A stretch of 64,000 bases of DNA from Escherichia coli (GTDB lineage: Bacteria > Pseudomonadota > Gammaproteobacteria > Enterobacterales > Enterobacteriaceae), in the NCBI RefSeq assembly GCF_013315695.1, contig NZ_CP054353.1, one strand, 5' to 3'. Position numbers and translations under genes: made by a program. The notes under the pieces are model-generated. The model had not been told where the DNA came from. It was given only the letters and a program-made list of their open reading frames with translations, and did no database searches. Every line of letters begins with the position of its first letter. Positions within the stretch are counted from its first letter, which is position 1. Positions 39,874 to 45,466 of the stretch are shown in pieces.

Positions 39874-41247
39874 ATGGCACTTTGGGGCGGGCGTTTTACC
39901 CAGGCAGCAGATCAACGGTTCAAACAATTCAACGACTCACTGCGCTTTGATTACCGTCTGGCGGAGCAGGATATTGTTGGCTCTGTGGCCTGGTCCAAAG
40001 CCCTGGTAACGGTCGGCGTGTTAACCGCAGAAGAGCAGGCGCAACTGGAAGAGGCGCTGAACGTGCTGCTGGAAGATGTTCGCGCCAGGCCACAACAAAT
40101 CCTTGAAAGCGACGCCGAAGATATCCATAGCTGGGTGGAAAGCAAACTGATCGACAAAGTGGGTCAGTTAGGCAAAAAGCTGCATACCGGGCGTAGCCGT
40201 AATGATCAGGTAGCGACTGACCTGAAACTGTGGTGCAAAGATACCGTTAGCGAGTTGCTGACGGCTAACCGGCAGTTACAATCCGCTCTGGTCGAGACCG
40301 CGCAGAACAATCAGGACGCGGTAATGCCAGGTTACACCCACCTGCAACGTGCTCAACCGGTGACGTTCGCGCACTGGTGCCTGGCTTACGTGGAGATGCT
40401 GGCGCGTGATGAAAGCCGCTTGCAGGATGCGCTTAAGCGTCTGGATGTCAGTCCGTTAGGCTGTGGCGCGCTGGCGGGAACGGCTTATGAAATCGACCGT
40501 GAACAGTTAGCTGGCTGGCTGGGCTTTGCTTCAGCGACCCGTAACAGTCTCGACAGCGTTTCTGACCGTGACCACGTGCTGGAACTGCTTTCTGCTGCCG
40601 CTATCGGCATGGTGCATCTGTCGCGTTTTGCTGAAGATCTGATTTTCTTTAACACCGGCGAAGCGGGGTTTGTGGAGCTTTCTGACCGTGTGACTTCCGG
40701 TTCATCATTAATGCCGCAGAAGAAAAACCCGGATGCGCTGGAGCTGATTCGCGGTAAATGCGGCCGGGTGCAGGGTGCGTTAACCGGCATGATGATGACG
40801 CTGAAAGGTTTGCCGCTGGCTTACAACAAAGATATGCAGGAAGACAAAGAAGGTCTGTTCGACGCGCTCGATACCTGGCTGGACTGCCTGCATATGGCGG
40901 CGCTGGTGCTGGATGGCATTCAGGTGAAACGTCCGCGTTGCCAGGAAGCGGCTCAGCAGGGTTACGCCAACGCCACTGAACTGGCGGATTACCTGGTGGC
41001 GAAAGGCGTACCGTTCCGCGAGGCGCACCATATTGTGGGTGAAGCGGTGGTGGAAGCCATTCGTCAGGGCAAACCGCTGGAAGATCTGCCGCTCAGTGAG
41101 TTGCAGAAATTCAGCCAGGTGATTGGCGAAGATGTCTATCCGATTCTGTCGCTACAATCGTGCCTCGACAAGCGTGCGGCAAAAGGCGGCGTCTCACCGC
41201 AGCAGGTGGCGCAGGCGATTGCTTTTGCGCAGGCTCGGTTAGAGTAA
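39874..41247 (+). CDS. argH: Argininosuccinate lyase
   Basis: 457-aa [26 protein letters not shown]; fumarate-lyase family. Confidence 0.95.
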
Positions 41248-41259
41248 TTGGTTTATATT

Positions 41260-41280
41260 GCTCCCCTGAAAATGGGGAGC
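41260..41280 (+). terminator. Stem-loop after argH (weak terminator candidate)
   Basis: gctcccc-tgaaaat-ggggagc hairpin directly after the argH stop; no strong T-run. Confidence 0.35.
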
Positions 41281-41732
41281 TTACCACGCCTATAAAGTAG
41301 CGACACTACGTAGGCGGACTGCCTCAGGCAGAAATTTGTCAGCATTCTGGTGACCTTAAATTTAACGCCCAACCAGAACTATTATTTGTCATATTCCTTT
41401 TTATTCTTGCATCTTCTTTACCTTCACTCTCCCCATGAAAATCATATTTTCAATACATCAATCAATACATATTTTAATTAATTGAATATAATTAATTTCT
41501 ATTGCTGTGCTCATTTTTAATGATTAATGGAGTTTGTTATGTGATTATTTAACGTGTTGTTTTAACGATGATGGTTAATTATTCAGGTGGTTTTTGAGGG
41601 TGTTTTTTCTCCTCGGCGGAAATTTTTATTTTTAATGTGATCACGGTTGAATAATCGCTCCTTCTCTCTTGTATGGTAGTAGGCGTAAAATTAAGTTTGA
41701 AGCGTCTATTTACAACACAGGAGATTGCAATA

Positions 41733-42947
41733 ATGAAAATTATTGCTGCAGATGTTTTTGTTACTTGCCCAGGACGTAATTTCGTTACGCTTAAAATAAC
41801 CACTGCAAGCGGACTTTGTGGATTGGGAGATGCCACATTAAATGGTCGCGAATTGTCGGTCGCTTCTTATCTGAAAGATCATCTTTGTCCACAATTAATT
41901 GGCCGCGATGCCAGCCGTATCGAAGATATCTGGCAATTCTTTTATAAAGGTGCTTACTGGCGACGTGGCCCCGTCACGATGTCGGCCATTTCTGCCATTG
42001 ATATGGCGTTGTGGGATATCAAAGCCAAAGCGGCAAATATGCCATTGTATCAACTGCTTGGTGGTGCTTCTCGTGAAGGCGTGATGGTTTATTGCCACAC
42101 CACCGGGCGCACGATTGATGAAGTCCTTGAAGACTATGCAAAGCACCAGCAGATGGGCTTTAAGGCGATTCGTGTGCAGTGCGGTGTACCGGGTATGCAA
42201 ACCACTTATGGCCTGGCGAAGGGCAAAGGACTGGCGTATGAACCGGCAACCAAAGGCCTGTGGCCGGAAGAGCAGTTGTGGTCTTCAGAAAAGTATCTCG
42301 ATTTTACACCGAAGTTATTTGAAGCGGTGCGTAATAAGTTCGGTTTTAACGAACATCTGTTGCATGACATGCACCATCGCCTGACTCCTATCGAAGCGGC
42401 GCGCTTTGGGAAGAGCATTGAGGATTACCGCCTGTTCTGGATGGAAGATCCGACGCCTGCTGAGAACCAGGAATGTTTTCGTCTGATTCGCCAGCATACT
42501 GTGACGCCGATTGCGGTCGGTGAAGTGTTTAACAGTATCTGGGACTGCAAGCAGTTAATCGAAGAGCAGCTGATTGACTATATTCGCACGACGATTACCC
42601 ATGCAGGCGGCATAACCGGGATGCGACGGATTGCCGATTTTGCATCGCTTTATCAGGTACGTACCGGTTCGCATGGCCCTTCAGATTTATCGCCTGTTTG
42701 TCATGCGGCGGCGCTGCATTTTGACCTCTGGGTGCCAAACTTTGGCGTTCAGGAGTACATGGGCTATTCCGAACAAATGCTTGAAGTCTTCCCGCATAGC
42801 TGGCGCTTCGATGAAGGTTATATGCACCCAGGCGATGAACCGGGGCTGGGTATTTCTTTCGATGAGAAACTGGCGGCGAAATATCCGTATGACCCGGCGT
42901 ATCTCCCCGTCGCACGACTGGAAGATGGCACATTGTGGAACTGGTAA
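41733..42947 (+). CDS. Enolase-superfamily sugar-acid dehydratase, RspA/ManD-like (D-mannonate/altronate dehydratase family), accessory
   Basis: ORF 41673..42947; start at ATG 41733 with AGGAG RBS 9 nt upstream; 404 aa [24 protein letters not shown]... closely resembles RspA as I recall it. Confidence 0.8.
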
Positions 42948-43013
42948 TAACAGTTCGCTTAATTATTTTCTGAATAGTCATCAAATCGATTAATTCCGCT
43001 CAAGGAGCTAAAA

Positions 43014-44297
43014 ATGGACGTTGATGTGTCAACCAGTGTTGCGGGTAATAAACCGCAACGGATTCGTCGTATTCAGACAGTAACGCTGGTTTTATTATTT
43101 ATGGCGGGGATCGTTAATTTCCTCGACCGTTCGTCATTGAGCGTGGCAGGCGAAGCGATTCGTGGCGAGTTAGGATTATCGGCGACAGAATTTGGCGTTT
43201 TGCTTTCTGCATTTTCTCTGTCTTATGGTTTTTCACAACTCCCTTCCGGTATTTTGCTAGACCGCTTTGGCCCACGAATAGTTTTAGGCGCAGGCTTAAT
43301 ATTCTGGTCATTAATGCAGGCATTAACAGGAATGGTTAATTCTTTTAGCCACTTTATTTTAATGCGTATCGGTCTGGGTATTGGCGAAGCGCCATTTATG
43401 CCTGCGGGAGTAAAATCGATCACCGACTGGTATGCGCAAAAAGAACGCGGCACGGCGCTGGGGATTTTTAACTCATCTACCGTTATCGGTCAGGCTATTG
43501 CGCCTCCTGCTCTTGTATTGATGCAGCTGGCATGGGGCTGGCGGGCAATGTTCGTCATCATCGGCGTGGCGGGGATTCTGGTTGGGATCTGTTGGTACGC
43601 GTGGTATCGCAACCGGGCGCAGTTTGTCCTGACCGACGAAGAACGGACCTATCTCTCCGCGCCGGTTAAACCGCGTCCACAATTACAATTTAGCGAGTGG
43701 CTGGCGCTGTTTAAGCATCGGACAACCTGGGGGATGATTTTAGGTTTCTCTGGCGTCAATTATACCGGTTGGCTCTACATCGCGTGGTTACCCGGTTATT
43801 TACAAGCCGAGCAAGGCTTCAGTCTGGCGAAAACCGGTTGGGTGGCGGCGATTCCTTTCCTCGCGGCGGCGGTCGGGATGTGGGTTAACGGTATTGTTGT
43901 CGATCGGCTGGCGAAAAAAGGCTACGACCTGGCGAAGACGCGTAAAACGGCTATTGTCTGCGGTTTGATGATGTCGGCATTAGGCACGTTGCTGGTCGTG
44001 CAATCCTCCTCGCCAGCCCAGGCTGTAGCGTTTATCTCAATGGCGCTGTTCTGCGTGCATTTCGCGGGAACATCTGCATGGGGACTGGTGCAGGTGATGG
44101 TGTCAGAAACAAAAGTGGCTTCCATCGCCGGGATTCAAAACTTTGGCAGTTTTGTTTTTGCTTCCTTTGCTCCGATCGTAACCGGTTGGGTAGTGGATAC
44201 CACGCACTCGTTTAATATGGCGCTGGTTATCGCGGCCTGTGTGACGTTCACCGGGGCGCTGTGTTACTTCTTTATTGTCAAAGATCGGATTGAGTAA
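43014..44297 (+). CDS. MFS transporter, probable hexuronate/aldonate (anion:cation symporter-like) permease, accessory
   Basis: 427-aa ORF with AGGAG RBS; about 12 predicted TM segments; MFS signature region GLGIGEAPFMPAGVKSITDW; 66 bp downstream of the dehydratase. Confidence 0.75.
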   Translation: MDVDVSTSVAGNKPQRIRRIQTVTLVLLFMAGIVNFLDRSSLSVAGEAIRGELGLSATEFGVLLSAFSLSYGFSQLPSGILLDRFGPRIVLGAGLIFWSLMQALTGMVNSFSHFILMRIGLGIGEAPFMPAGVKSITDWYAQKERGTALGIFNSSTVIGQAIAPPALVLMQLAWGWRAMFVIIGVAGILVGICWYAWYRNRAQFVLTDEERTYLSAPVKPRPQLQFSEWLALFKHRTTWGMILGFSGVNYTGWLYIAWLPGYLQAEQGFSLAKTGWVAAIPFLAAAVGMWVNGIVVDRLAKKGYDLAKTRKTAIVCGLMMSALGTLLVVQSSSPAQAVAFISMALFCVHFAGTSAWGLVQVMVSETKVASIAGIQNFGSFVFASFAPIVTGWVVDTTHSFNMALVIAACVTFTGALCYFFIVKDRIE

Positions 44298-44336
44298 CTG
44301 TTACTATCAGGCTCTCTTGCTGTGGGCCTGTAGAAT

Positions 44337-44453
44337 AAAAAAAAGCGGATCCTGGAGATCCGCAAAAGTTCACGTTGGCTTTAGTTATTCGAGTTGAGAA
44401 ACTCTCGAAACGGGCAGTGACTTCAAGGGTTAAAAGAGGTGCCGCTCCGTTTC
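44337..44453 (-). ncRNA. oxyS: OxyS small regulatory RNA
   Basis: Minus strand reads GAAACGGAGCGGCACCUCUUUUAACCCUUGAAGUCACUGCCCGUUUCGAGAGUUUCUCAACUCGAAUAACUAAAGCCAACGUGAACUUUUGCGGAUCUCCAGGAUCCGCUUUUUUUU, matching the OxyS sequence I recall, divergent from oxyR and ending in a terminator hairpin plus U-run. Confidence 0.85.
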
Positions 44454-44548
44454 TGTGAGCAATTATCAGTCAGAATGCTTGATAGGGATAATCGTTCGTT
44501 GCTATGCTACCTATCGCCGCGAACTATCGTGGCAATGGAGGATGGATA

Positions 44549-45466
44549 ATGAATATTCGTGATCTTGAGTACCTGGTGGCATTGGCTGAACACCGCCATT
44601 TTCGGCGTGCGGCAGACTCCTGCCACGTTAGCCAGCCGACGCTTAGCGGGCAAATTCGTAAGCTGGAAGATGAGCTGGGCGTGATGTTACTGGAGCGGAC
44701 CAGCCGTAAAGTGTTGTTCACCCAGGCGGGAATGCTGCTGGTGGATCAGGCACGTACCGTGCTGCGTGAAGTGAAAGTTCTTAAAGAGATGGCAAGCCAG
44801 CAGGGCGAGACCATGTCCGGGCCGCTGCATATTGGTTTGATTCCCACGGTCGGGCCGTACCTGCTACCGCATATTATCCCGATGCTGCACCAGACCTTTC
44901 CAAAGCTGGAAATGTATCTGCATGAAGCACAGACCCACCAGTTACTGGCGCAACTGGACAGCGGCAAGCTCGATTGCGTGATCCTCGCGCTGGTGAAAGA
45001 GAGCGAAGCATTCATTGAAGTGCCGTTGTTTGATGAGCCAATGTTGCTGGCTATCTATGAAGATCACCCGTGGGCGAACCGCGAATGCGTACCGATGGCC
45101 GATCTGGCAGGAGAAAAACTGCTGATGCTGGAAGATGGTCACTGTTTGCGCGATCAGGCAATGGGGTTCTGTTTTGAAGCCGGGGCGGATGAAGATACAC
45201 ACTTCCGCGCGACCAGCCTGGAGACGCTGCGCAACATGGTGGCGGCAGGTAGCGGAATCACTTTACTGCCTGCGCTGGCTGTGCCGCCGGAACGCAAACG
45301 CGATGGGGTTGTTTATCTGCCGTGCATTAAGCCGGAACCACGCCGCACTATTGGCCTGGTTTATCGTCCTGGCTCACCACTGCGCAGCCGCTATGAGCAG
45401 CTGGCAGAGGCCATCCGCGCAAGAATGGATGGCCATTTCGATAAAGTGTTAAAACAGGCGGTTTAA
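44549..45466 (+). CDS. oxyR: LysR-family oxidative-stress regulator OxyR
   Basis: ORF 44504..45466; start trimmed to [40 protein letters not shown] giving 305 aa. Confidence 0.95.

What the first reader, a model, noticed from the sequence alone, without database searches (positions are those of the whole stretch)
44298..44548. oxyS–oxyR control region preserved immediately beside the accessory insert
The MFS transporter stop (44297) lies only about 40 bp from the oxyS terminator A-run (44337..44344), so the insert abuts the 3' end of the divergent oxyS sRNA gene. The oxyS sequence and the oxyR start look intact, but convergent transcription from the accessory operon could read into oxyS antisense unless terminated within those 40 bp (the oxyS terminator hairpin gcggatcctggagatccgc could act bidirectionally).
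Basis: partly seen in the sequence, partly recalled or inferred. Interest (0 to 1): 0.3.

Follow-up and report, generated by a model that had tools for sequence, protein, structure and literature searches.

The report
Intact oxyS–oxyR region beside common insert
This is the ordinary, fully intact E. coli peroxide-stress control region (OxyS small RNA and oxyR), lying next to a two-gene sugar-acid module that about a third of E. coli strains carry; the module removed the neighbouring gene's terminator, but nothing suggests the stress circuit is harmed.

Summary
oxyS lies at 44344..44453 on the minus strand (Rfam OxyS, 139.5 bits, full length). It is identical to K-12 from the A8 run at 44337 through 44497. 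The MFS stop codon ends at 44297, 39 nt before the A run. oxyR starts at 44549.

The manD–MFS insert (41248..44336) replaces the ancestral 54-bp argH–oxyS spacer, including argH's own intrinsic terminator. That terminator sits back-to-back with the oxyS terminator in K-12, Citrobacter and Klebsiella. The right junction falls exactly at the outer edge of the oxyS terminator T-tract.

The arrangement is common: about 1,860 of 5,426 complete E. coli genomes carry it, as do E. whittamii and two unnamed Escherichia species.

On the plus strand the hairpin is followed by AAAAGUUC (T-tail score 0.15, against 5.68 on the minus strand). No other plus-strand intrinsic terminator and no C-rich Rho-loading stretch lies before oxyR. 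Some read-through, antisense to oxyS and sense into oxyR, is therefore plausible whenever manD–MFS is transcribed. This is untested and evidently tolerated.

The feature is ordinary and already known, with one small testable hypothesis. Interest is low.

The parts
41248..44336 (+). Accessory insert (manD plus an MFS transporter with 5' and 3' non-coding DNA). It replaces the ancestral 54-bp argH-oxyS spacer.
   Evidence: Alignments to K-12 and other insert-free strains. The left junction is directly after the argH TAA at 41247. The right junction is at 44337. About 1,860 of 5,426 genomes carry it.
41733..42947 (+). manD, a D-mannonate dehydratase of the enolase superfamily and a paralogue of rspA.
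   Evidence: NCBIfam ManD equivalog, 731.5 bits against a cutoff of 550. Pfam MR_MLE_N and MR_MLE_C. RefSeq annotation. 81% DNA identity to rspA.
41624..41732 (+). rspA-type promoter region of manD: a TGTGATC box and the invariant TTGTATGGTAGT (41669-41680). Only half of the published RspR box is kept.
   Evidence: Alignment with the E. coli rspA and the Kluyvera, Raoultella and Cedecea manD upstream regions. The RspR-box ATACnnGTAT comes from PMC8249747. Function here is inferred.
43014..44297 (+). MFS transporter gene (anion:cation symporter-like). Its stop codon is at 44295-44297.
   Evidence: Pfam MFS_1, E = 2.9e-56. Best NCBIfam match is the D-galactonate transporter subfamily, below its cutoff. 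Orthologues at 87-89% aa identity sit in the rsp locus of Kluyvera, Cedecea and Raoultella.
44299..44337 (+). Hairpin in the 39-nt MFS 3' spacer (core stem 44308-44330). It has no U-tract.
   Evidence: -14.2 kcal/mol with T-tail score 0; the core is -11.0 kcal/mol. Kept in E. coli, E. whittamii and Escherichia sp. E1V33, but largely lost in Escherichia sp. MOD1-EC7003.
44337..44344 (-). T8 tract of the oxyS intrinsic terminator (A8 on the plus strand). This is the exact right-hand junction of the insert.
   Evidence: Its length varies from 7 to 9 among carriers.
44345..44363 (-). oxyS terminator hairpin.
   Evidence: On the minus strand: 8 pairs, -11.2 kcal/mol, T-tail score 5.68. On the plus strand: 7 pairs, -10.3 kcal/mol, T-tail score 0.15.
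44344..44453 (-). oxyS gene (OxyS small RNA). The transcription start is at 44453.
   Evidence: Rfam RF00035, 139.5 bits, model positions 1-110 of 110. Identical to K-12.
44462..44467 (-). Probable oxyS -10 hexamer (GATAAT on the minus strand).
   Evidence: Read directly from the sequence and identical to K-12. The assignment is inferred.
44491..44527 (.). 37-bp OxyR-binding site: ATCG-N7-CTAT-N7-ATCG-N7-CTAT.
   Evidence: The four contact tetranucleotides are identical to K-12. Four SNPs fall at degenerate positions. PMC8825220 describes a ~37-bp palindromic OxyR site in this intergenic region. The motif consensus is from my own knowledge (Toledano et al. 1994).
44479..44508 (+). Probable oxyR promoter: TTGATA, 18-nt spacer, TATGCT (TATTCT in K-12).
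   Evidence: Promoter scan. The SNP at 44506 lies in the -10 hexamer. The assignment is inferred.
44549..45466 (+). oxyR coding sequence (305 aa).
   Evidence: RefSeq annotation of the identical genome; protein WP_001025939.1, the same as in K-12. Pfam HTH_1 and LysR_substrate.

Best explanation
The region 44298-44548 is the standard divergent oxyS-oxyR control region, unchanged in every functional element. It sits beside a derived but common allele of the argH-oxyS spacer.

In an ancestor within Escherichia, a manD-MFS module was inserted. The module is a copy of two genes that in related enterobacteria belong to the rsp (rspA/ydfH) sugar-acid locus, and it carries an rspA-type promoter. It replaced the 54 bp between the argH stop codon and the T-tract of the oxyS terminator. 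That deleted argH's own intrinsic terminator, which ancestrally stands back-to-back with the oxyS terminator.

OxyS still terminates at its own hairpin plus U8, a terminator that works in one direction only. The accessory operon has no dedicated terminator. The plus strand offers two U-tract-less hairpins that could at most cause pausing, and a G-rich untranslated stretch that is poor for Rho. Whenever manD-MFS is transcribed, some polymerases therefore probably run antisense through oxyS and on into oxyR.

I judge this leak to be low and harmless, for three reasons. The operon promoter is weak or regulated. The peroxide-induced oxyS promoter would be expected to win head-on encounters. And the allele has persisted across species with oxyS invariant.

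Shown: the anatomy, the junctions, the ancestry, the distribution, and the absence of plus-strand terminator signals. Inferred: read-through, its size and its consequences.
For: - OxyS is full-length and identical to K-12.
- The junction lies at 44337 in all 26 insert-free genomes sampled evenly from 5,425 and in the eight-strain alignment.
- K-12, other insert-free E. coli, Citrobacter sedlakii and Klebsiella spallanzanii keep a homologous argH terminator abutting the oxyS terminator. The insert-free state is therefore ancestral.
- That terminator sequence is absent from the whole window.
- The insert is present in 1,860-1,868 of 5,426 complete E. coli genomes and in E. whittamii, Escherichia sp. 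MOD1-EC7003 and Escherichia sp. E1V33.
- Terminator scans find only the minus-strand oxyS terminator.
- Plus-strand hairpins have T-tail scores of 0-1.0. The best plus-strand candidate is the imperfect anti-OxyS stem (score 3.06, 11-nt loop). The overall C/G ratio is 0.73 and ranges from 0.5 to 1.06 in 78-nt windows.
- MFS orthologues lie in the rsp locus next to manD/rspA in Kluyvera, Cedecea and Raoultella.
- The manD promoter is homologous to the rspA promoter.
- RspR represses rspA through an ATACnnGTAT box overlapping that promoter (PMC8249747).
- The consensus scan finds no strong sigma-70 promoter upstream of manD.
Against: - No transcript data were available, so read-through is a prediction from missing signals, not an observation.
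- Hairpins without U-tracts can pause polymerase, and such 'bidirectional terminator' elements are reported to act through polymerase collisions (bioRxiv 10.1101/2022.10.23.513370). Termination at or near the oxyS hairpin cannot be excluded.
- Rho can act on poor sites, and one 78-nt window reaches C/G 1.06.
- The RspR box is only half conserved in the insert, so the operon could be more active than I assume.
- The MFS-proximal hairpin is conserved in most carriers, which could reflect a function I have not identified, such as 3'-end stabilisation.
Confidence: 0.75

Rival explanations
1. The oxyS terminator hairpin acts as a bidirectional terminator, so manD-MFS transcription stops cleanly within or at the 39-nt spacer and hairpin, and oxyS is fully insulated.
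For: - A stable near-palindromic hairpin sits between two convergent units.
- A second hairpin (-14.2 kcal/mol) precedes it on the plus strand.
- Many E. coli convergent gene pairs are reported to share hairpin elements that do not resemble intrinsic terminators and work through head-on polymerase collisions.
- The allele is tolerated in a third of genomes.
Against: - On the plus strand the hairpin is followed by AAAAGUUCAC, with a T-tail score of 0.15 against 5.68 on the minus strand.
- The consensus scan reports no plus-strand terminator here.
- Collision-driven termination needs active convergent transcription, but oxyS is essentially silent without peroxide (established knowledge of the OxyR regulon).
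- In the cited work the hairpin element alone does not terminate.
- In the ancestral layout a separate argH terminator is conserved across genera right next to the oxyS hairpin. That would be unnecessary if the oxyS hairpin sufficed.
Confidence: 0.12
2. Rho-dependent or other factor-dependent termination, or polymerase blockage by OxyR bound at 44491-44527, ends accessory-operon transcripts somewhere in the 251-nt untranslated stretch before oxyR. Antisense-oxyS RNA is then made, but oxyR is not co-transcribed.
For: - 251 nt of untranslated RNA follow the MFS stop codon, which is the condition under which Rho can load.
- One 78-nt window reaches C/G 1.06.
- OxyR binds this intergenic region (PMC8825220). 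That it does so in both redox states, and could therefore act as a standing roadblock, is from my own knowledge and by inference.
Against: - The stretch is G-rich overall: 26.7% G, 19.5% C, C/G 0.73.
- It is highly structured, being the complement of the OxyS stem-loops. Both properties disfavour Rho loading.
- No evidence bears directly on a roadblock.
Confidence: 0.1
3. Read-through is functionally meaningful. Induction of manD-MFS produces an antisense RNA that lowers OxyS, or interferes with its transcription, and supplies OxyR-independent oxyR mRNA. That would couple sugar-acid catabolism to the peroxide response in carrier strains.
For: - No plus-strand terminator or rut-like signal lies between the MFS stop codon and the oxyR ATG.
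- The ancestral shielding terminator has been deleted.
- The geometry places oxyR downstream in sense orientation.
Against: - No expression data exist.
- No conserved sequence feature suggests that this coupling has been selected for. The spacer diverges freely in MOD1-EC7003.
- The MFS gene is decaying in some strains, with a 276-nt internal deletion in DSM 101139 and shorter E. coli variants.
- The oxyS-oxyR haplotypes assort independently of the insert.
Confidence: 0.05

Closest known systems
E. coli K-12 oxyS-oxyR divergent locus (OxyS sRNA, Rfam RF00035; OxyR LysR-type regulator)
   Same: - The 110-nt oxyS gene, its terminator hairpin and U8 tract, and the oxyS promoter are identical base for base.
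- The OxyR protein is the same.
- The spacing is the same: 96 bp from the oxyS transcription start to the oxyR ATG.
- The four OxyR contact elements are the same.
   Different: - Five linked SNPs lie in the OxyR-site/oxyR-promoter/leader stretch. They form a second natural haplotype, present in about 745 of 5,425 genomes at >=99% identity, in strains with and without the insert.
- DNA distal to the U-tract is the MFS 3' spacer rather than the argH terminator.
Back-to-back convergent terminators of argH and oxyS in insert-free Enterobacteriaceae (K-12, Citrobacter sedlakii, Klebsiella spallanzanii)
   Same: A plus-strand gene converges on oxyS, and the oxyS terminator is identical or nearly so.
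   Different: In those genomes the incoming gene (argH) has its own hairpin plus T6-7 terminator ending 3-4 nt before the A-run. Here that element is deleted and the incoming gene (MFS) has only a hairpin without a U-tract.
Bidirectional terminators between convergent E. coli genes (SEnd-seq class; collision model, bioRxiv 10.1101/2022.10.23.513370)
   Same: A single hairpin element lies between two convergent transcription units.
   Different: - For the canonical sequence-defined type (A-tract, hairpin, U-tract), the plus-strand U-tract is missing.
- For the collision type, one partner (oxyS) is silent except under peroxide stress, so collisions cannot be the routine mechanism. This last point is inference.
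rspA-rspB / rsp locus (RspR = YdfH regulon) of E. coli and relatives
   Same: - manD is an rspA paralogue with 81% DNA identity.
- Its promoter shares the invariant TTGTATGGTAGT and TGTGATC boxes with rspA.
- MFS orthologues lie in the rsp locus of Kluyvera, Cedecea and Raoultella, and in Kluyvera in the same manD-then-MFS order.
   Different: - The module sits at a different chromosomal site.
- It has no rspB and no adjacent GntR regulator.
- The left half of the RspR box is changed from ATAC to TCTC in all Escherichia carriers examined.

Membership tests
OxyS sRNA (Rfam RF00035) | Covariance-model match at or above the gathering score, over the full length | tested here: met
   139.5 bits against a gathering score of 75, model positions 1-110 of 110, E = 4.6e-29. 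Identical to the K-12 gene.
OxyS sRNA (Rfam RF00035) | Encoded divergently from oxyR, with an OxyR-binding site in the shared intergenic region | tested here: met
   oxyS is on the minus strand with its start at 44453. The oxyR ATG is at 44549 on the plus strand. The 37-bp site at 44491-44527 keeps the four contact tetranucleotides as in K-12. The locus description is in PMC8825220.
OxyS sRNA (Rfam RF00035) | Rho-independent terminator with a long U-tract (needed for 3'-end formation and Hfq binding) | tested here: met
   8-pair hairpin, -11.2 kcal/mol, followed by T8; T-tail score 5.68.
OxyS sRNA (Rfam RF00035) | OxyR-dependent induction by hydrogen peroxide | not testable with these tools
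   Requires a Northern blot or RNA-seq in this strain.
Bidirectional intrinsic terminator (A-tract, hairpin, U-tract) | Stable GC-rich hairpin between convergent genes | tested here: met
   44345-44363: -10.3 kcal/mol on the plus strand and -11.2 kcal/mol on the minus strand.
Bidirectional intrinsic terminator (A-tract, hairpin, U-tract) | A U-rich tract directly 3' of the hairpin on both strands | tested here: not met
   The minus-strand tail is TTTTTTTTATTCTAC (score 5.68). The plus-strand tail is AAAAGTTCACGTTGG (score 0.15). No plus-strand terminator appears in the consensus scan.
Bidirectional intrinsic terminator (A-tract, hairpin, U-tract) | Mapped overlapping RNA 3' ends from both strands | not testable with these tools
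   Needs Term-seq or SEnd-seq on a strain carrying the insert.
OxyR binding site (four ATAG-type elements at 10-bp spacing) | Four tetranucleotide elements with N7 spacers, as in the K-12 oxyR-oxyS site | tested here: met
   ATCG-N7-CTAT-N7-ATCG-N7-CTAT at 44491-44527. All four SNPs within the site fall at spacer positions. The consensus is from my own knowledge (Toledano et al. 1994); the ~37-bp palindrome is noted in PMC8825220.
D-mannonate dehydratase ManD (NCBIfam NF043051) | Equivalog HMM score above the curated cutoff | tested here: met
   731.5 bits against a cutoff of 550.
RspR (YdfH)-repressed promoter | RspR-box palindrome ATACnnGTAT at the promoter | tested here: inconclusive
   The window has TCTCTTGTAT. 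The right half and the flanking GGTAGT are invariant, while the left half is changed in all Escherichia carriers. One Raoultella MFS promoter has ATTC. The box definition comes from PMC8249747.

The most novel reading that the evidence does not exclude
In the roughly one-third of E. coli that carry the manD-MFS module, loss of the ancestral argH terminator leaves oxyS and oxyR exposed to incoming plus-strand transcription. Induction of the sugar-acid operon, or strong argCBH read-through, would then generate an anti-OxyS RNA and OxyR-independent oxyR transcripts. The result would be a strain-specific rewiring of the peroxide response by carbon source.
Probability: 0.07. Interest if true: 0.45.

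Novelty: already known. Interest (0 to 1): 0.17.

Why it matters
OxyS and OxyR are a textbook stress circuit studied almost entirely in K-12. This analysis shows that the K-12 layout, with the argH terminator back-to-back with the oxyS terminator, is the ancestral one. It also shows that a third of sequenced E. coli, including extraintestinal pathogens such as S88, have a different 3' neighbourhood lacking that shielding terminator. If read-through occurred at meaningful levels it would be a simple natural example of an accessory-gene insertion changing the transcriptional insulation of a core small-RNA gene. More probably it matters only as an annotation note: oxyS and oxyR are intact here, and nothing needs explaining.

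Tried and rejected
- I searched the whole window for a relocated copy of the K-12 argH terminator, allowing up to 3 mismatches. There were none.
- I looked for any other RNA family in 41200-44600 at E <= 1. Only OxyS matched.
- I looked for a plus-strand intrinsic terminator using the consensus scan and my own hairpin plus T-tail scan. None is credible. The best candidate is the imperfect anti-OxyS stem, with a T-tail score of 3.06 and an 11-nt loop.
- I looked for a Rho-loading C-rich region and did not find one: C/G is 0.5-1.06.
- I tested whether the MFS 3' spacer came with the genes from a donor context that carried a full terminator. DNA similarity to the Kluyvera, Raoultella and Cedecea loci stops at the coding sequences. 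Their downstream sequences are unrelated, so the origin of the spacer is unresolved.
- I considered whether the five SNPs are linked to the insert. They are not: both haplotypes occur with and without it.
- I considered whether the insert-bearing state could be ancestral and K-12 a deletion. I rejected this, because outgroup genera share the homologous argH terminator with K-12.
- Literature searches for a description of this argH-oxyS island, or for transcript data across it, found nothing relevant.
- I did not check individual model pathogens other than S88 for carriage of the insert.

Full report
**1. What is at the coordinates**

The window is an E. coli chromosome segment running ppc–argECBH … oxyS–oxyR–sthA–fabR … btuB … rrn. 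Reading 43900–44900 directly gives these positions:

| Feature | Coordinates |
|---|---|
| MFS transporter stop codon TAA | 44295–44297 |
| Spacer | 44298–44336 (39 nt) |
| A8 run | 44337–44344 |
| Hairpin GCGGATCCTGGAGATCCGC | 44345–44363 |
| oxyR ATG | 44549 |

The oxyR start agrees with the RefSeq annotation of a genome 100% identical over 41100–44560 (isolate AF3). Rfam places a complete OxyS (RF00035) at 44344..44453 on the minus strand: 139.5 bits against a gathering score of 75, E = 4.6e-29. No other RNA family matches 41200–44600 even at E ≤ 1.

**2. How intact is it**

Aligned to a K-12 derivative, every base from 44337 to 44497 is identical. That span covers the A run, all of oxyS and the oxyS promoter. 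OxyR has the same protein accession in the identical genome as in the K-12 derivative.

It occurs with the insert (S88, GTEN_23) and without it (O166:H15 JNE21-009). The K-12 haplotype likewise occurs with the insert (WP2-S18, CKJ_1000) and without it.

About 745 of 5,425 genomes are ≥99% identical to the window across this stretch. The 37-bp OxyR site, ATCG-N7-CTAT-N7-ATCG-N7-CTAT at 44491–44527, keeps all four contact elements. The four SNPs inside it lie at spacer positions. The motif is from my own knowledge (Toledano et al. 1994); PMC8825220 notes a ~37-bp palindrome in this region. The SNP at 44506 changes the probable oxyR −10 hexamer from TATTCT to TATGCT. None of this suggests loss of function.

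**3. The insert and its junctions**

K-12 has 54 bp between the argH stop codon and the A8 run: gaacatttatatgtataaatttGAGCCTGGCTTATCGCCGGGCTTTTTTATggc. This is a classical intrinsic terminator for argH (−17.2 kcal/mol with a T6 tail) ending 4 nt before the A-run of the oxyS terminator.

In the window those 54 bp are replaced by 3,089 bp (41248–44336), made up as follows:
- two hairpins just after argH;
- about 400 bp of AT-rich DNA at 27–35% GC;
- manD at 41733–42947, matching the ManD equivalog at 731 bits;
- the MFS gene at 43014–44297;
- the 39-nt spacer.

The left junction is directly after the argH TAA. The right junction is the first A of the A8 run. In every one of 26 insert-free genomes sampled evenly from the ranking, the match to the window begins at query position 98, which is window position 44337. 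The K-12 argH terminator sequence is nowhere in the window, even allowing 3 mismatches.

**4. Distribution and polarity**

The insert is present in 1,860 (whole insert) to 1,868 (junction) of 5,426 complete E. coli genomes. A scan of one genome per species with a conserved OxyS segment returned seven loci.
- Carrying manD–MFS with the same junction: E. whittamii, Escherichia sp. MOD1-EC7003 and Escherichia sp. E1V33.
- Lacking it: an E. coli representative, E. albertii, Citrobacter sedlakii and Klebsiella spallanzanii.

Citrobacter and Klebsiella keep a recognisably homologous argH terminator abutting the oxyS terminator; in E. albertii the spacer is shorter and looks degenerate. The insert-free layout is therefore ancestral. 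The insert is a derived allele, an insertion with deletion of the spacer. It is old, or has spread by recombination, within Escherichia.

PMC8825220 independently describes the argH–oxyR interval as variable across Enterobacterales. It reports that oxyS derives from the 3′ end and terminator of an ancestral peroxidase mRNA.

**5. Where the insert came from**

The closest non-Escherichia MFS orthologues (87–89% aa identity) are in Cedecea, Raoultella, Kluyvera and Klebsiella aerogenes. In three of these (Raoultella, Cedecea, Kluyvera) I read the genomic context, and the gene lies in the rsp locus: ynfA – manD/rspA – (rspB) – MFS – ydfI – ydfH(GntR) – ydfG – dcp. In Kluyvera the order is manD then MFS, as in the window. 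DNA similarity to the window is confined to the coding sequences (73–81%), and the 3′ spacers are unrelated.

The roughly 110 bp upstream of manD is homologous to the E. coli rspA promoter. It has an invariant TTGTATGGTAGT (41669–41680) and an upstream TGTGATC. RspR (YdfH) represses rspA through an ATACnnGTAT box at that position (PMC8249747). All Escherichia carriers have TCTCTTGTAT, which keeps only half of the box. Whether RspR still controls the accessory operon is open. The consensus scan finds no strong sigma-70 promoter there.

**6. Can plus-strand transcription stop before oxyS?**

The consensus scan over 41000–44800 finds one good terminator near the junction, the minus-strand oxyS terminator. 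It finds none on the plus strand after the MFS gene or after argH. My own hairpin and T-tail scan gives:

| Element | Strand | ΔG (kcal/mol) | T-tail score | Tail |
|---|---|---|---|---|
| oxyS hairpin | minus | −11.2 | 5.68 | TTTTTTTTATTCTAC |
| oxyS hairpin | plus | −10.3 | 0.15 | AAAAGTTCACGTTGG |
| MFS-proximal hairpin, 44299–44337 | plus | −14.2 | 0 | — |
| MFS-proximal hairpin core, 44308–44330 | plus | −11.0 | 1.0 | — |
| anti-OxyS stem a, 44411–44449 (11-nt loop) | plus | −10.0 | 3.06 | — |

The anti-OxyS stem is the best plus-strand candidate and is imperfect.

The 251-nt untranslated plus-strand stretch is G-rich: 26.7% G and 19.5% C, giving C/G 0.73. In 78-nt windows C/G ranges from 0.5 to 1.06. 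The stretch is also strongly structured, so it is a poor Rho substrate. By sequence criteria the oxyS terminator works in one direction only, and the accessory operon has no terminator of its own.

The MFS-proximal hairpin is kept in E. coli, E. whittamii and E1V33, including a C-G to U-G change. It is largely lost in MOD1-EC7003. It does not look indispensable.

**7. Most likely behaviour**

What is shown: OxyS has everything it needs and is unchanged.

What is inferred: when manD–MFS is transcribed, or argCBH reads through 3 kb, some polymerases cross oxyS in antisense and continue into oxyR in sense. I expect the effect to be small for four reasons:
- the operon promoter is weak or regulated;
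- under peroxide the very strong oxyS promoter should win head-on encounters, and hairpins are reported to position such collisions (bioRxiv 10.1101/2022.10.23.513370);
- OxyR bound at 44491–44527 may impede passage, though this is speculative;
- the allele has persisted in a third of E. coli and in sister species, with oxyS unchanged in all eight Escherichia carriers read across the junction.

Signs of decay in the MFS gene in some strains argue against a selected regulatory coupling. DSM 101139 has a 276-nt internal deletion, and shorter E. coli variants exist.

**8. Comparison with the known and verdict**

This is the known OxyS/OxyR locus, a member by every testable criterion, beside an accessory module that RefSeq already annotates. 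It is not a bidirectional intrinsic terminator, because the defining plus-strand U-tract was tested and is absent.

The only new points are descriptive:
- the insertion removed the conserved argH terminator;
- its junction coincides with the edge of the oxyS T-tract;
- the module is a transplanted piece of the rsp locus.

Novelty is 'already known' and interest is low. The residual hypothesis, read-through affecting OxyS or oxyR, can be tested with strand-specific 3′-end mapping in a carrier strain.

Noticed in passing
window 44498, 44506, 44519, 44520, 44534: Five linked SNPs relative to K-12 form a second common haplotype of the OxyR-site/oxyR-promoter/leader stretch, while the adjacent 161 bp (oxyS and its promoter) are invariant. 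The haplotype occurs both with and without the insert. The SNP at 44506 creates an in-frame ATG at 44504, which is why the mechanical ORF list gives a 320-aa 'OxyR'. K-12 instead has an out-of-frame ATG at the position equivalent to 44518.
   Followed up: partly
window 44510-44538 (oxyR leader): The right half of the OxyR site folds as a hairpin in the oxyR leader in both haplotypes: -21.7 kcal/mol in K-12 and -17.1 here. The SNPs at 44519 and 44520 keep pairing (A-U to G-U, U-G to C-G). The SNP at 44534 introduces a C·A mismatch.
   Followed up: partly
L007 (E. coli strain 98200, NZ_CP173567.1), inside oxyS: A 16-bp insertion (TTAAGCGCAGTGACCA) lies within OxyS stem-loop a in an insert-free clinical isolate. 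It is the only oxyS length variant seen and may disrupt the sRNA.
   Followed up: no
window 44337-44344 and the same site in L003, L005, L014: The oxyS terminator T/A run varies among carriers: 7 (CKJ_1000, MOD1-EC7003), 8 (most) and 9 (GTEN_23). This may be real homopolymer polymorphism or assembly error. U-tract length matters for Hfq-dependent sRNAs.
   Followed up: no
window 41624-41732; L020 2380-2485; L016 4890-5000 and 6320-6426: The manD promoter of the insert is homologous to the rspA promoter (invariant TTGTATGGTAGT plus an upstream TGTGATC). It keeps only half of the published RspR box (TCTCTTGTAT against ATACTTGTAT). In Raoultella the same cassette precedes both the MFS gene and manD.
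   Followed up: partly
window 41300-41700: About 400 bp of very AT-rich DNA (27-35% GC) of unknown origin lies between argH and the manD promoter. It has no convincing ORF, no Rfam hit and no counterpart in the Kluyvera, Raoultella or Cedecea loci. It may be an H-NS target.
   Followed up: partly
window 41260-41312: In carriers argH is followed by a 7-bp hairpin (GCTCCCC-TGAAAAT-GGGGAGC, no T-tract) and a second inverted repeat (CGCCTA…TAGGCG). E. whittamii has a REP-like element (GCCTGATGCGC…) at this place. argH therefore also lacks its ancestral terminator in carriers.
   Followed up: partly
L021 (E. coli DSM 101139, 99.6% identical to the window): The MFS gene is 1,008 nt instead of 1,284, a 276-nt internal deletion. 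The protein database also holds 399-aa and 388-aa E. coli variants. This suggests the transporter is decaying in some lineages.
   Followed up: no
L009 (E. albertii NBRC 107761): The argH-oxyS spacer is shorter and the argH terminator looks degenerate. The oxyS terminator loop is one base shorter (GCGGATCCTGGGATCCGC) and is preceded by A7 plus T.
   Followed up: no
window 41245: The last sense codon of argH is GAG (Glu) here and in the closest relatives. It is GGG (Gly) in K-12, S88 and the other strains examined.
   Followed up: no
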